A program made the position numbers. From the NCBI RefSeq assembly GCF_057098645.1, contig NZ_CM169472.1: a stretch of DNA of 64,000 nucleotides; one strand, given 5' to 3'. Positions 46,401 through 49,400 of this stretch are shown here, piece by piece; the stretch's first letter is position 1, and the number at the start of each line of letters is the position of its first letter.

Positions 46401-49400
46401 CCAGAATGCTAATGCTCATTAAGCGGGGAAGTTCTGTGCGAAATTTTATCTTCCTTATGGCTTTCTTCTGTTCATCTGTGTTTGCCACACAAATTCCAGT
46501 ACCTGAATCCCCCAAGTATGTGAATGACTTAACCGGCACATTAACAAACAGCGAAGTAAACACCCTGACCAACCAGATTAAAGCCCTGACGCAAAAAAGC
46601 CACGCACAACTGGTCGTGTTAGTGGTTGAAACAACAGGCGATGAAACCATCGAGCAGTACGCAACGCGGGTATTCGATAGCTGGAAACCGGGTGATAAAG
46701 ACCGCGATGATGGCGTTCTACTGTTAGTCGCCTGGCAGGATCATACCGTGCGTATTGAAATCGGTTACGGACTGGAAGGTATTATTACAGATGCGCAGTC
46801 CGGGCAAATTATTCGCAACAGTATTATTCCGGCATTTAAAAATGGTGATCTTGCTGGCGGTTTACAAAAGGGGATCAGCGATATTGAAAGTCGTCTTACG
46901 GGGAATAATTTAGCAACGATAACACCGACCGATCACCCTTTGCCCTTTAGCGGTTGGTGGGCATTGTTAGTCTGGGCGATAGTACTGACGTTTATTTCTG
47001 CCAGAGGATATATCAAAACGCTGGGAGTAATTTGCTTCGCAGCTATTGTACTGGCCTTTGTTTTACCTATAGCAGGCTTCAGCGGAAGCTGGGGAGTACT
47101 CGCAACATTACTCTGCTTCGCCACACCGTTCCTGGCTGTCGCCATCGCTTTTACCCCCTTCGGCAAAAAAGTTCGGGATTTGATGCGTGATGTCAACCAG
47201 CCATCACGCCATACAAGAAGCAATTCTTCCTCCCACTATTCATCATCGTCATCCTCTTCATTCAACAATGACAATTTCAGCGGTGGTGGCGGTTCATCTG
47301 GTGGCGGTGGCGCTTCCGGGCGCTGGTAACAAAAGGAATTGATATGCGTATTTTTCTCTTACTTCTGATGCTATGCGGTTTTCAGGTATTCGCTGAACAA
47401 TGGCCTTCAGTAACTGACTTAACCGGGACATTAACGACAGAAGAACAAACTGCTTTAACTCAACAATTACAGACTCTCGAGCAGCAAAACCACTTCCAGG
47501 TGGCCGTGTTGGTTACGCCGACCACAGGGGGCAAAAACATTAAACTTGCAGCCTCGCAGAGATACGGGGTATATCACTGGAAACCCGTTGGAGAGAAGCG
47601 ATATGGCGAAGGTATCTTAATTCTCGTCGTATGGCCGGAAGGGCTGGCGTCAATGAAGATTGGACATGGACTGGAACAGATGTTGCCGCCGGAACAAGCT
47701 GCGCAAATTGTTCGTTACCATATGCAGCCAGAATTCGAAAAAAACAATCTCTTTGCTGGATTAACGGGCGGAATTGAAAGCATCGCACAGTTTACCCATA
47801 TCAAAGCGAACCTTAGCCCTTTGGATGCTTTAGCCAATCATCTGTTTGCTAATCCGCAACGTTCGCTGCCATGTCTTGCCTGGACACTGCTGATGATCGT
47901 TGCCATCGTTGTCCTCTGGCGATTTGCCAGCCGCCCACGGCGTGGCATATGGATGATATCGATGATTACCCCTATGGTCTGGTTTTTCTCCTTTCAGGAC
48001 GATGTCATCATTCGGCGGGTGTCGATCGTTTGTTTTAGTTTATTGTTAGCAACAACCTGCAAGCAGCGTCTCGCGGTAGTTTTTAATTTGTGCCGCGTAT
48101 TTCCTATGATGCTGGCCCCAAAAAATAAAAACGCTAAAGTGAAAAAACAAAAGAAGACTCCGCAGGTTCGTGAATCAGGACGAAATTCATTGTTTGTCGT
48201 GATGCTGATAATTATTGTGGGATGGTGCCTGGTGTTCGCCAGTAATAAAGATATTGCATTCATCTCAACAATTATTGGGTTAATTGATCATTTTATCGGC
48301 CCAATAACCATTGCTGGCATCGTTCTGCTGATCATTGTGGCCAAATTTACTGGCAATCTTAAGTTGGGATCAGGAGAAAAAAGCAACAGGAAAACGGGGA
48401 ATCGTAATGCTCACTCTCGCTCTTCGTCGAGAAATTCTTTCCGCGGTGGTGGCGGTTCTTCAGGAGGCGGCGGTTCATCCGGCCGTTGGTGATCGTAATG
48501 CGCTTAATCTTTATTCTACTTGCTTTGTGGAGCCTTCCCGGGCTTGCCCAGCAAATTGCTGTGCCGGAGCTGCGCCAACAGGTGACCGATATTACTGGTA
48601 CGTTAAGCACTTCTGAACAACAATCACTGACACAGCAACTGCAGGATATTACACATAAAACACGGGCGCAGGTCGCTGTATTAGTAGTGCCGTCCACCGG
48701 AGACGATTCCATTGAACAATATGCTACAAGGGTTTTTGATAGCTGGAAACTGGGAGATAAGCAGAGAAACGATGGTATTTTACTTCTGGTTGCCAGGGAG
48801 GATCATGCTGTTCGTATTGAGGTTGGCTACGGGCTGGAAGGGGTGGTTACCGACCTGCAAGCGGCGAAAATTATCAGGGATATATTGATCCCTGCCTTCA
48901 AAAGTGATGACCTGATGGGTGGATTAACACTGGCAAGCGAAAATATCGGCGCGCTTCTGTTGAATGGTGAATTATCGGAAGACAAGGGGGATTATTACAG
49001 TATCAATCCTCCTATTCCATTATCGCTTGCTGTAATTATATTGCTGGCGGTACTTTCATATTTTATTGTTTTTACCGATCCGTCGAATTTACCCTGGATC
49101 ACTCTCACTGGCGCCATTTACGGGATGGTATTCCTCTATGTTGCCGAGCCAGGACCATGGACCAATTTAATCGTTGCCTGCGGTATGTTAACGCCTTTTG
49201 CGATCGTACCACTGGTTATTTTTTGGCTTATCGTCAATAAAAAGCTACGCGCCAAATACAAAAAACTCAGTAAAGAAAGAGCTTCAAGAAAAGGTTCTTC
49301 TTCATCCTCTTCCGGTAGAGGCTCAAGTGGCGGCGGGGTTAGCGGCGGGGGCGGTTCTTCTGGCGGTGGCGGCGCGTCCGGTCGCTGGTAACTCAACCAT

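What the first reader, a model, noticed from the sequence alone, without database searches (positions are those of the whole stretch)
47221..49391. Shared C-terminal tail ...GGGGSSGGGG(A/S)SGRW-stop on all three TPM paralogs
Despite divergence elsewhere, all three end with a Ser-rich low-complexity stretch and then FSGGGGSSGGGGASGRW, FRGGGGSSGGGGSSGRW or GGGVSGGGGSSGGGGASGRW. The C-terminal nucleotides are also similar (47281..47329, 48445..48492, 49344..49391). Retention of the terminal SGRW on a predicted cytoplasmic tail suggests a functional motif (partner docking, degradation tag or assembly signal) or gene conversion between copies.
Basis: seen in the sequence. Interest (0 to 1): 0.5.

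Follow-up and report, generated by a model that had tools for sequence, protein, structure and literature searches.

The report
Conserved glycine-tryptophan tail of YgcG-type proteins
The three neighbouring E. coli membrane proteins do end in the same 17-residue glycine-rich tail closing with tryptophan, but this is the standard, strongly conserved and functionally uncharacterised end-piece of a very large bacterial protein family, not a local oddity or a product of gene copying.

Summary
TPM1, TPM2 and TPM3 end in FSGGGGSSGGGGASGRW, FRGGGGSSGGGGSSGRW and VSGGGGSSGGGGASGRW.

Gene conversion is not supported. Only 38-50% of same-amino-acid codons in the tails are identical between paralogs, close to the 30-36% seen in the rest of the genes.

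The tail is the signature of membrane-anchored ("YgcG-type") TPM proteins: [FYW]-S-GGGG-x-[S/F]-GGGG-[A/S]-S-G-x-W-COOH.
- 134 of the 150 best cluster representatives end in W.
- In a sample chosen on the TPM domain alone, 72 of 75 complete genes carry the motif. Motif carriers span Proteobacteria, Bacteroidota, Spirochaetes, Nitrospinota, a candidate-phylum lineage, Actinomycetota and Bacillota.
- Trp is invariant. The penultimate Arg is not.

Signal peptides, an odd number of membrane helices and positive charge after the last helix place the tail in the cytoplasm, on a disordered Ser/Gly tether.

AlphaFold2 models the tail as a confident beta strand only when the TPM domain is present. That domain is periplasmic, so docking within one molecule is topologically impossible. 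Most other bacteria encode a cytoplasmic short TPM protein next door; none was detected in E. coli.

Best reading: a tethered cytoplasmic C-terminal docking peptide whose receptor is unknown. It is an ordinary member of a barely described family signature.

The parts
45820..46422 (+). lemA, first gene of the four-gene operon. LemA family protein with a lipoprotein signal (NLSGC), so predicted periplasmic.
   Evidence: RefSeq annotation of the 100%-identical strain C325. The translation shows the lipobox. NCBIfam gives a weak MamQ/LemA-like match. A lipobox is present in 44 of 66 LemA neighbours elsewhere.
46436..47329 (+). TPM1: signal peptide, TPM domain, three hydrophobic helices, basic/Ser-rich linker, conserved tail.
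   Evidence: Pfam PF04536 E=5.6e-41; RefSeq CDS; helices read from the sequence.
47162..47275 (+). TPM1 cytoplasmic linker (GKKVRDLMRD...SSSSSSSFNNDN): basic, then Ser-rich.
   Evidence: Sequence. The equivalent segment of TPM3 is modelled as disordered, pLDDT <50.
47276..47326 (+). TPM1 tail motif FSGGGGSSGGGGASGRW-COOH.
   Evidence: Matches the family logo at every constrained position.
47344..48492 (+). TPM2: divergent paralog with a larger membrane region and a weaker TPM domain.
   Evidence: Pfam PF04536 E=3.7e-21; no NCBIfam match; RefSeq CDS.
48439..48489 (+). TPM2 tail motif FRGGGGSSGGGGSSGRW-COOH. This is the least constrained of the three tails across strains.
   Evidence: Position -3 is G, V or D in other E. 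coli strains, and E. albertii has lost the Trp codon (TGG to TAG).
48489..49391 (+). TPM3: positional allele of K-12 ygcG. Its GTG start overlaps the TPM2 stop (GTGA).
   Evidence: RefSeq CDS; Pfam E=3.5e-38. The 3' end and downstream DNA are 92-97% identical to K-12-type ygcG.
49236..49337 (+). TPM3 cytoplasmic linker (NKKLRAKYKKLSKERASRKGSSSSSSGRGSSGGG).
   Evidence: Sequence. In the AF2 model residues 250-279 have pLDDT <50; the basic start of the segment is modelled as the end of helix 220-253.
49338..49388 (+). TPM3 tail motif VSGGGGSSGGGGASGRW-COOH.
   Evidence: AF2 gives pLDDT 81-96 and a beta strand at residues 288-296 in the full-length model. Both are lost when the TPM domain is removed.
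49408..49425 (+). Terminator-like hairpin (GCCAGCC-CGAA-GGCTGGC plus a T run) that closes the operon, between TPM3 and the convergent eno gene.
   Evidence: Consensus scan.

Best explanation
The tail is the family-defining C-terminal short linear motif of membrane-anchored (YgcG-type) TPM-domain proteins: [F/Y/W]-S-G-G-G-G-x-[S/F]-G-G-G-G-[A/S]-S-G-x-W-COOH.

Shown here:
- It is kept by purifying selection at the protein level, not by gene conversion.
- It is fixed in register to the free C-terminus.
- It occurs only on TPM proteins in the sampled loci.
- It is found in both diderm and monoderm phyla.

Inferred from sequence: it sits in the cytoplasm, at the end of a disordered Ser/Gly-rich tether of variable length (7-83 residues). 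The tether follows one or three membrane helices, and the TPM domain and LemA lie outside the membrane.

Proposed mechanism (inferred): the motif is a tethered docking peptide. The invariant terminal Trp with its free carboxylate acts as the anchor, and the two Gly4 blocks form a thin beta strand that adds to the edge of a partner's beta sheet. AlphaFold2 places it on a TPM fold. In the common operon type (lemA, long TPM, short TPM) the only topologically possible TPM receptor is the cytoplasmic short TPM protein encoded just downstream.

E. coli lacks a detectable copy of that gene yet keeps the motif, so in this window the receptor is some other, unidentified cytoplasmic partner. The overall role would be to couple an extracytoplasmic LemA/TPM module to the cytoplasmic face of the membrane.
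For: Conservation:
- 134 of the 150 best representatives, out of 22,814 hits, end in W.
- The positions are near-invariant: G at -15 to -12 and -9 to -6, S or F only at -10, A or S only at -5, S at -4, W at -1.

Tail-independent sampling:
- 72 of 75 complete genes found through the TPM-domain peptide IEVGYGLE carry the motif.
- All 74 motif-bearing ORFs in those loci are TPM proteins.
- Actinomycetota and Bacillota members also have it.

Selection, not conversion:
- Same-codon fraction is 0.38-0.50 in the tails against 0.30-0.36 elsewhere in the genes.
- Other E. coli strains and E. albertii show synonymous changes in the TPM1 and TPM3 tails.

Cytoplasmic location:
- Signal peptides are present, and there are single-helix examples with Arg clusters after the helix (L043, B. 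longum).
- Odd helix counts dominate: 106 against 18 among representatives and 54 against 20 among loci.
- Net charge is +1.28 after the last helix and -0.47 before the first.

Docking:
- AF2 gives the tail pLDDT 81-96 and a beta strand at 288-296, with the linker below 50.
- Without the TPM domain the tail drops to pLDDT 55-61 and has no strand.

Cytoplasmic TPM candidate:
- A tail-less TPM gene without a signal peptide lies directly downstream in 57 of 74 loci.
- Phe at -10 goes with its presence (45:3) and Ser does not (12:13), Fisher p=2e-5, though this is confounded by phylogeny.
Against: - The AF2 contact is with the protein's own TPM domain, which is periplasmic. As drawn it is topologically impossible, so it may be an artefact or a misassigned contact between proteins. 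I could not inspect the model coordinates.
- The control alignment was shallower (60 sequences against 99).
- No short TPM was detected in E. coli or Proteus (tblastn, E up to 1, in the chromosome-sized E. coli and Proteus records held in the plasmid collection).
- Pseudomonas, B. longum and the candidate-phylum locus have no short TPM gene beside the long one.
- All of these keep a canonical tail, so a short TPM cannot be the universal receptor.
- No experiment bears on the tail. The searchable literature mentions it only in passing.
- The helix counts come from a crude hydrophobicity script, not a trained predictor.
Confidence: 0.5

Rival explanations
1. Gene conversion or concerted evolution between the three tandem paralogs keeps their 3' ends alike.
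For: The tails are 75-82% identical at nucleotide level while the rest of the genes are 42-50% identical. The genes are tandem. The boundary between the E. coli locus variants falls inside the tail-coding region of TPM3/ygcG.
Against: Among codons encoding the same amino acid, only 38-50% are the same codon in the tails. That is close to the 30-36% in the rest of the genes, so there is no recent shared DNA tract. The same motif is present in single-copy genes across many phyla.
Confidence: 0.03
2. The tail is a compositionally biased flexible spacer with no sequence-specific role (low-complexity drift).
For: It is made of Gly and Ser and follows a low-complexity Ser/Gly linker of variable length. 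Weak Pfam matches to a Gly-rich bacteriocin family (YxzE, E=1e-4 and 6e-4) show that composition alone gives hits.
Against: The register relative to the C-terminus is fixed. W is found in 134 of 134, position -10 is only S or F, and position -5 is only A or S. The upstream linker, by contrast, varies freely in length (7-83 residues) and sequence.
Confidence: 0.03
3. The tails of neighbouring molecules, or of the three paralogs, associate with each other. They would form a Gly-rich beta or polyproline-II zipper with stacked aromatic residues at -17, -10 and -1, clustering the proteins on the cytoplasmic face.
For: Aromatic residues sit at regular positions in a Gly/Ser-rich disordered segment, and beta-proteobacterial versions are GGFGGGG repeats. 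The idea needs no separate receptor, so it fits E. coli, which lacks a detectable short TPM.
Against: AF2 of the membrane-plus-tail fragment gives no structure to the tail, though a monomer model cannot test self-association. E. coli has Ser, not an aromatic residue, at -10, and TPM3 has Val at -17.
Confidence: 0.15
4. The tail is a C-terminal degradation or quality-control tag. A membrane or cytoplasmic protease (for example FtsH, which starts on disordered cytoplasmic tails) would read it to control TPM protein levels.
For: It is at the C-terminus, on a long disordered cytoplasmic segment, and the terminal residue is invariant. Psb32/TLP18.3 relatives act in a repair cycle that depends on proteolysis; this link rests on my own knowledge of that system.
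Against: No known bacterial degron resembles G4-x2-G4-ASGxW. Conservation of 15 positions across diderm and monoderm phyla exceeds what known tags need. Psb32 itself lacks the tail.
Confidence: 0.1
5. The tail really docks on the protein's own TPM domain, as AlphaFold2 draws it. That would mean the C-terminus is on the same side of the membrane as the domain and the topology inference is wrong.
For: The tail has pLDDT 81-96 and a beta strand only when the TPM domain is present. The crude helix counts include a minority of even numbers.
Against: Clear single-helix members have signal or lipoprotein peptides and Arg/Lys clusters after the helix (L043, L024, B. longum). Odd helix counts dominate and the charge bias is positive-inside. 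Nothing hydrophobic follows the basic cluster that could carry the tail across the membrane.
Confidence: 0.08
6. The Gly-rich blocks bind phosphate groups (lipid head groups or nucleotides) through backbone amides, with Trp anchoring at the membrane interface. The tail would then be a membrane-binding element, not a protein-binding one.
For: Gly-rich loops commonly bind phosphate, and Trp favours the membrane interface; both points rest on general knowledge. The tail is tethered next to the inner leaflet.
Against: There are no basic or hydrophobic residues inside the motif. The tether is up to 83 residues long, which is unnecessary for binding the adjacent membrane. The penultimate residue can be acidic (D in 8 of 134).
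Confidence: 0.07

Closest known systems
YgcG family / long membrane-anchored TPM-domain proteins (E. coli K-12 YgcG; Bizionia BA41; B. subtilis YdjH as described by Ravi et al. 2024, PMC11237479)
   Same: Signal peptide, PF04536 TPM domain, membrane helices, low-complexity Ser/Gly segment and the same C-terminal motif. K-12-type YgcG ends in the identical FSGGGGSSGGGGASGRW. NCBI labels relatives 'YgcG family protein'.
   Different: This strain has three tandem copies preceded by lemA, where K-12 has yqcG plus a single ygcG. The four-gene form is in 1102 of 5426 complete E. coli genomes. TPM2 has a larger membrane region and a more weakly conserved domain and tail.
Psb32 / TLP18.3 (photosystem II assembly and repair factor)
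   Same: Same TPM fold (Foldseek hits 3ptj, 3pvh, 8c7i at E 4e-6 to 4e-5). The domain lies on the extracytoplasmic or lumenal side and is followed by a membrane helix.
   Different: The NCBIfam Psb32 scores of 32-35 bits are far below the 160-bit cut-off. Psb32 lacks the Gly-rich extension. The Psb32 preprint says non-photosynthetic homologs carry it and Psb32 lost it.
Stand-alone short TPM proteins (BA42 type; the gene downstream of the long TPM in most sampled loci)
   Same: PF04536 domain (E=1.3e-16) encoded in the same operon type.
   Different: No signal peptide, no membrane helix and no Gly/Trp tail. It has its own conserved C-terminus, NELPDxPxxL. It was not detected in this window, in the chromosome-sized E. 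coli records that could be searched with a protein query, or in the K-12-type locus.
Tethered C-terminal docking peptides such as the SSB C-terminal tip (DDDIPF-COOH) or the FtsZ C-terminal peptide (functional analogy, from my own knowledge)
   Same: A folded domain, then a disordered low-complexity linker of variable length, then a short, highly conserved peptide fixed to the free C-terminus that ends in an aromatic residue.
   Different: No sequence relationship. Here the peptide is almost pure Gly/Ser, the protein is membrane-anchored, and no partner is known. The analogy concerns how it may work, not family membership.
Gly-rich repeat motifs: RTX GGxGxD nonapeptides and Gly-rich bacteriocins (Pfam YxzE, PF25184)
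   Same: Two Gly-rich blocks spaced by two residues. Weak Pfam YxzE matches over the last helix, linker and tail (E=1e-4 and 6e-4).
   Different: No Asp at the calcium-binding position, only two blocks, and no secretion signal. The segment is the end of a 300-380-residue membrane protein, and the matches look compositional.

Membership tests
TPM domain family (Pfam PF04536) | Significant match to the PF04536 profile | tested here: met
   TPM1 E=5.6e-41, TPM2 E=3.7e-21, TPM3 E=3.5e-38.
TPM domain family (Pfam PF04536) | TPM alpha/beta fold | tested here: met
   In the AF2 model of TPM3 the domain has pLDDT above 95. Foldseek matches 5anp and 7tbr with target-normalised TM-score about 0.9 and rmsd 1.6-2.2 A.
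YgcG-type long TPM proteins | N-terminal signal peptide, then TPM domain, then one or more membrane helices | tested here: met
   Hydrophobic N-termini and three or more hydrophobic segments after the domain. AF2 helices at 175-193, 198-215 and 220-253 in TPM3. No trained signal-peptide or topology predictor was available.
YgcG-type long TPM proteins | Ser/Gly-rich linker ending in [FYW]S-GGGG-x-[SF]-GGGG-[AS]-S-G-x-W-COOH | tested here: met
   All three tails fit the logo built from 134 representatives. TPM3 has V at the loosely constrained -17 position.
Canonical lemA / long TPM / short TPM operon | LemA gene directly upstream on the same strand | tested here: met
   lemA at 45820-46422 lies 13 nt before TPM1. 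The same arrangement is seen in 53 of 75 sampled loci.
Canonical lemA / long TPM / short TPM operon | Tail-less cytoplasmic short TPM gene directly downstream | tested here: not met
   The operon ends at a terminator after TPM3. tblastn with a gammaproteobacterial short TPM at E up to 1 found no hit in the chromosome-sized E. coli records, while Acinetobacter and Aeromonas chromosomes were hit.
Psb32 / TLP18.3 (NCBIfam NF047379) | Score above the curated cut-off of 160 bits | tested here: not met
   34.7 and 32.0 bits for TPM1 and TPM3, and no match for TPM2.
RTX calcium-binding repeats | Tandem GGxGxDxUx nonapeptides with a conserved Asp | tested here: not met
   Only two Gly blocks, no Asp, and a different spacing of 7 and 9 residues between the aromatic positions.
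C-terminal sorting signals (GlyGly-CTERM, PEP-CTERM, LPXTG) | Motif followed by a hydrophobic helix and a basic cluster | tested here: not met
   The motif is the very end of the protein and nothing follows the Trp.
Outer-membrane beta-barrel C-terminal signal (terminal aromatic residue) | Restricted to diderm outer-membrane proteins | tested here: not met
   The motif is present in Bifidobacterium longum, Priestia megaterium and Enterococcus faecalis, and on inner-membrane-type helical proteins.
Tethered C-terminal docking peptide (SSB-tip-like mode of action) | A specific partner that binds the free C-terminal peptide | not testable with these tools
   There is only an AF2 monomer model. The tail is structured solely when a TPM fold is present. 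No multimer prediction, model coordinates or experiment were available.

The most novel reading that the evidence does not exclude
The G4-x2-G4-ASGxW-COOH peptide is a widespread cytoplasmic 'plug' that adds a beta strand to a TPM-fold receptor. In most lineages the receptor would be the short cytoplasmic TPM paralog. The link would physically couple an extracytoplasmic LemA/TPM module to a cytoplasmic TPM module across the membrane. This would be a previously unrecognised two-sided envelope assembly or signalling device, of which E. coli keeps a receptor-less or re-wired version.
Probability: 0.2. Interest if true: 0.7.

Novelty: new member of a known kind. Interest (0 to 1): 0.42.

Why it matters
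YgcG-type TPM proteins are very common: 22,814 cluster representatives matched at E up to 1e-3. They are often encoded beside LemA, and TPM-domain proteins have been proposed to help assemble membrane protein complexes. No function is known for them in E. coli.

A 17-residue C-terminal motif conserved from Actinomycetota to Proteobacteria, ending in an invariant Trp, is a precise experimental handle. It suits peptide pull-downs, tail-deletion and W-to-A mutants, and multimer prediction.

The conflict between the confident AlphaFold2 docking and the membrane topology gives a testable lead. Either the receptor is a cytoplasmic TPM fold, or the accepted topology is wrong. For this window itself the result is modest: the three tails are ordinary instances of the family signature.

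Tried and rejected
- Gene conversion was rejected by codon-level comparison.
- Low-complexity drift was rejected by the C-terminus-anchored logo and by the tail-independent sample.
- LemA-TPM fusions were suspected for representatives with N-terminal extensions of about 190 residues. No LemA similarity was found.
- Two word-index protein searches with the TPM domain alone returned almost only short or partial proteins. They were useless for counting tails.
- The cluster look-up gave no organism names.
- A PDB sequence search with a consensus tail found nothing, and the solved TPM structures that matched aligned over the TPM domain only.
- NCBIfam has no model covering the tail.
- The Pfam YxzE 'bacteriocin' matches were judged compositional.
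- My first hydrophobicity script double-counted overlapping windows. It was replaced by greedy peak picking, and those counts remain crude.
- The BA41 structure paper is not held. Literature searches for YgcG topology and for Rv2345 found nothing relevant.
- A short TPM as universal receptor was considered and downgraded. None was detected in E. coli or Proteus, and several other lineages have no such gene beside the long TPM, yet all keep the tail.
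Full report
**Locus**

The window is Escherichia coli; the region 45700-49450 that was searched is 100% identical to strain C325. Between queE and the convergent eno and pyrG genes lies a four-gene operon on the + strand:
- lemA, 45820-46422
- TPM1, 46436-47329
- TPM2, 47344-48492
- TPM3, 48489-49391

Gaps between the genes are 13-14 nt, or a 4-nt GTGA overlap. A terminator-like hairpin follows at 49408-49425. All three downstream proteins carry a Pfam TPM domain, with E = 5.6e-41, 3.7e-21 and 3.5e-38.

The locus is polymorphic in the species. The four-gene form covers at least 80% of the query in 1102 of 5426 complete genomes. 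Most other genomes, including K-12-type strains, have yqcG plus a single ygcG. Some have lemA plus a truncated TPM gene.

**Observation**

The three proteins end in FSGGGGSSGGGGASGRW, FRGGGGSSGGGGSSGRW and VSGGGGSSGGGGASGRW, each preceded by a Ser-rich stretch. In a six-frame translation of the 64-kb window, the pattern occurs only at these three gene ends.

**Gene conversion**

I aligned the genes codon by codon and looked at positions where two paralogs encode the same amino acid.
- In the 17-residue tail only 38-50% of such codons are the same codon.
- In the rest of the genes the figure is 30-36%.
- The 75-82% nucleotide identity of the tails therefore follows from the fixed first two bases of the Gly and Ser codons. 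It is not evidence of a shared DNA tract.

The one exception is TPM3 against K-12-type ygcG. There the tail is 92% identical and the downstream DNA about 97% identical, while the gene bodies are about 50% identical. These two genes are positional alleles, and the boundary of flank homology lies about 65 nt before the stop codon.

**Family-wide conservation**

K-12-type YgcG ends in the identical FSGGGGSSGGGGASGRW. An exhaustive phmmer search of 1.84 billion cluster representatives gave 22,814 hits at E up to 1e-3. Of the best 150, 134 end in Trp, and most of the exceptions look like fragments or frameshifts.

Anchoring those 134 sequences on the C-terminus gives a logo with a fixed register:

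| Position | Residues (count of 134) |
|---|---|
| -17 | F 68, S 21, Y 17, W 10 |
| -16 | S 95 |
| -15 to -12 | GGGG (119-134) |
| -11 | variable |
| -10 | only S 72 or F 60 (2 exceptions) |
| -9 to -6 | GGGG (121-134) |
| -5 | A 111 or S 23 |
| -4 | S 130 |
| -3 | G 118 |
| -2 | variable: S 61, R 34, G 15, D 8, K 6, N 6 |
| -1 | W 134 |

That sample was ranked with a query containing the tail, so I took a second sample that ignores it. I scanned 100,044 species genomes with a TPM-domain-only alignment, using the peptide pattern IEVGYGLE.
- Of 75 complete genes recovered, 72 end in the motif. The exceptions are one frameshift-like end, one with three extra residues after the Trp, and one truncation.
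- The loci come from Alpha-, Beta-, Gamma- and Deltaproteobacteria, Bacteroidota, Spirochaetales, Nitrospinota and Candidatus Nomurabacteria.
- Every motif-bearing ORF in these loci is a TPM protein, 74 of 74.
- A tblastn search of plasmid records added monoderm members: Bifidobacterium longum (...FGGGSSGGGGASGSW, with lemA upstream), Priestia megaterium (...GGGGGSSGGGGASRGW) and Enterococcus faecalis (...FGGGSFGGGGGTSSW).

The motif is under strong purifying selection.

**Variation within Escherichia**

In three other E. coli strains and in E. albertii, the TPM3 tails, and the TPM1 tails wherever the gene is intact, differ only by synonymous changes or by changes at the loosely constrained positions -17 and -16. 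The exceptions:
- TPM2, the divergent paralog, is looser. Position -3 is G, V or D in different strains, and E. albertii has lost the Trp codon (TGG to TAG).
- Strain 141 carries a nonsense codon in TPM1 before the third helix.

**Topology**

Each protein starts with a signal-peptide-like segment. The TPM domain follows, then hydrophobic helices, then a basic cluster such as NKKLRAKYKKLSKERASRK, then the Ser/Gly linker.
- A crude hydrophobicity count over 198 family members gives three helices as the mode. Odd counts outnumber even ones, 106 to 18 among representatives and 54 to 20 among loci.
- Mean net charge is +1.28 in the 12 residues after the last helix, against -0.47 before the first.
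- Unambiguous single-helix members exist (L043, L024, B. longum), with Arg clusters right after the helix.
- LemA in this window and in 44 of 66 neighbours has a lipoprotein box, L-[ST]-G-C. In B. longum it has an N-terminal anchor preceded by basic residues.

The inferred picture is LemA and the TPM domain outside the membrane, and the tail inside on a tether of 7-83 residues with a median of 39. These are sequence-based inferences; I found no experimental topology data.

**Structure prediction**

I modelled TPM3 with AlphaFold2 using 99 aligned sequences.
- TPM domain: pLDDT above 95.
- Three helices: pLDDT 66-79.
- Linker residues 250-279: below 50.
- Last 17 residues: pLDDT 81-96, with a DSSP beta strand at 288-296.

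A strand needs a partner, and the only other strands in the model are in the TPM domain. As a control I modelled residues 158-297 alone with 60 sequences. The tail then fell to pLDDT 55-61 and had no strand. The network therefore docks the tail on the TPM fold.

With the topology above, this contact is impossible within one molecule, or between copies whose TPM domains are periplasmic. I could not see the coordinates, so the docking site is unknown.

**Operon context**

In 57 of 74 sampled loci a second TPM gene lies directly downstream. Its product is about 165 residues long in most Proteobacteria (about 215 in Bacteroidota), and the examples examined have no signal peptide. It lacks the Gly tail and ends in its own conserved motif, NELPDxPxxL. 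It matches PF04536 at E = 1.3e-16. This cytoplasmic TPM fold is the only topologically possible TPM receptor for the tail.

Phe at -10 goes with its presence (45 with, 3 without), whereas Ser does not (12 with, 13 without). Fisher's test gives p = 2e-5, but this is confounded by phylogeny.

E. coli has no such gene at this locus. tblastn at E up to 1 also found none in the chromosome-sized E. coli and Proteus records that happen to be in the plasmid collection, while Acinetobacter and Aeromonas chromosomes were hit. Pseudomonas, B. longum and the candidate-phylum locus also have no short TPM gene beside the long one, yet keep canonical tails. A short TPM therefore cannot be the universal partner, and in this window the partner is unknown.

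**Literature**

- Ravi et al. [quoted passage not shown] The lipocone paper repeats this proposal (PMC12419801).
- Matched solved structures aligned over the TPM domain only.
- Foldseek also matches a subunit of the mycobacterial CIII2CIV2 supercomplex (6adq_J), and a Campylobacter paper links a TPM protein to cbb3 oxidase. Both fit an accessory-factor theme.
- I found no definition of the motif and no functional test of it.

**Mechanism**

The best-supported reading is a tethered cytoplasmic C-terminal docking peptide. It has an invariant terminal Trp with a free carboxylate, two Gly4 blocks able to form a very thin strand, and a variable flexible tether. By analogy, from my own knowledge, it resembles the SSB C-terminal tip or the FtsZ C-terminal peptide.

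My confidence is about 0.9 that it is a selected, family-defining and probably cytoplasmic motif. It is about 0.45 that it is a protein-docking peptide, and about 0.25 that the receptor is a TPM fold. Rivals that remain open:
- self-association of tails
- a degradation tag
- phosphate or lipid binding
- true docking within one molecule, with the topology inference wrong

Gene conversion and drift are effectively excluded.

**Verdict**

The three tails are real, and they are ordinary instances of a signature shared by a very large protein family. That signature has been mentioned in the literature only in passing and is functionally uncharacterised. The locally new points are the exact definition of the motif, its phylogenetic breadth, the AlphaFold2/topology conflict and the missing receptor in E. 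coli.

Noticed in passing
window 43896-44637: Small CRISPR array upstream of queE. Four well-conserved type I-E-like repeats (GGTTTATCCCCGCTGGCGCGGGGAAC) lie at 44426-44637, spaced 60-61 nt apart, with two degenerate copies at 43896 and 43945. Many short ORFs listed in this region are repeat translations.
   Followed up: partly
window 45700-49450 versus L001 (K-12-type) and L002 (strain M8): The queE-eno interval is polymorphic in E. coli. The lemA plus three TPM genes form is in 1102 of 5426 genomes. Most others have yqcG plus ygcG, and some have lemA plus a truncated TPM and a hypothetical gene. Flank homology between the first two forms starts about 65 nt before the stop codon, inside the tail-coding region of the last gene.
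   Followed up: partly
L084-L086 and L004 (other E. coli strains and E. albertii): The TPM2 tail is relaxed across strains: position -3 is G, V or D, and E. albertii TPM2 has lost the terminal Trp codon (TGG to TAG). Strain 141 has a nonsense codon in TPM1 before the third helix. Some copies of the triplicated gene may be decaying.
   Followed up: partly
L005-L083, gene directly downstream of the long TPM (e.g. L038 4831-5328): A short TPM-domain protein, about 165 aa in most Proteobacteria, without a signal peptide. It has its own conserved C-terminal motif, NELPDxPxxL (NELxDDxR in Bacteroidota), and is present in 57 of 74 loci. That motif is also uncharacterised, as far as I could find.
   Followed up: partly
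window 45820-45890 (LemA N-terminus) and LemA genes in L004-L083: LemA carries a lipoprotein box (L-[ST]-G-C followed by GYN) in this window and in 44 of 66 neighbours. This implies a periplasmic lipoprotein here, whereas LemA is usually described as anchored by an N-terminal transmembrane helix.
   Followed up: partly
AF2 model m8e1e6e2d16d8 versus PDB: The TPM fold of TPM3 also matches a subunit of the mycobacterial respiratory CIII2CIV2 supercomplex (6adq_J, 8ovc, 6hwh) at Foldseek E 4e-3 to 2e-2. This fits the idea that TPM folds are accessory subunits of membrane complexes.
   Followed up: no
window 48486-48500: The TPM2 stop codon and the TPM3 GTG start overlap (GTGA), and an in-frame ATG follows 9 nt later at 48498. 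The true TPM3 start is therefore ambiguous. The tight spacing suggests translational coupling along the operon.
   Followed up: no
window TPM1 residues 267-302 and TPM3 residues 234-292: Weak Pfam matches to YxzE-like putative bacteriocins (PF25184, E=1e-4 and 6e-4). In TPM3 the match spans almost the whole 65-position model over the last helix, linker and tail. It is probably compositional, but small 'helix plus Gly-rich tail' proteins could be related to this C-terminal module.
   Followed up: no
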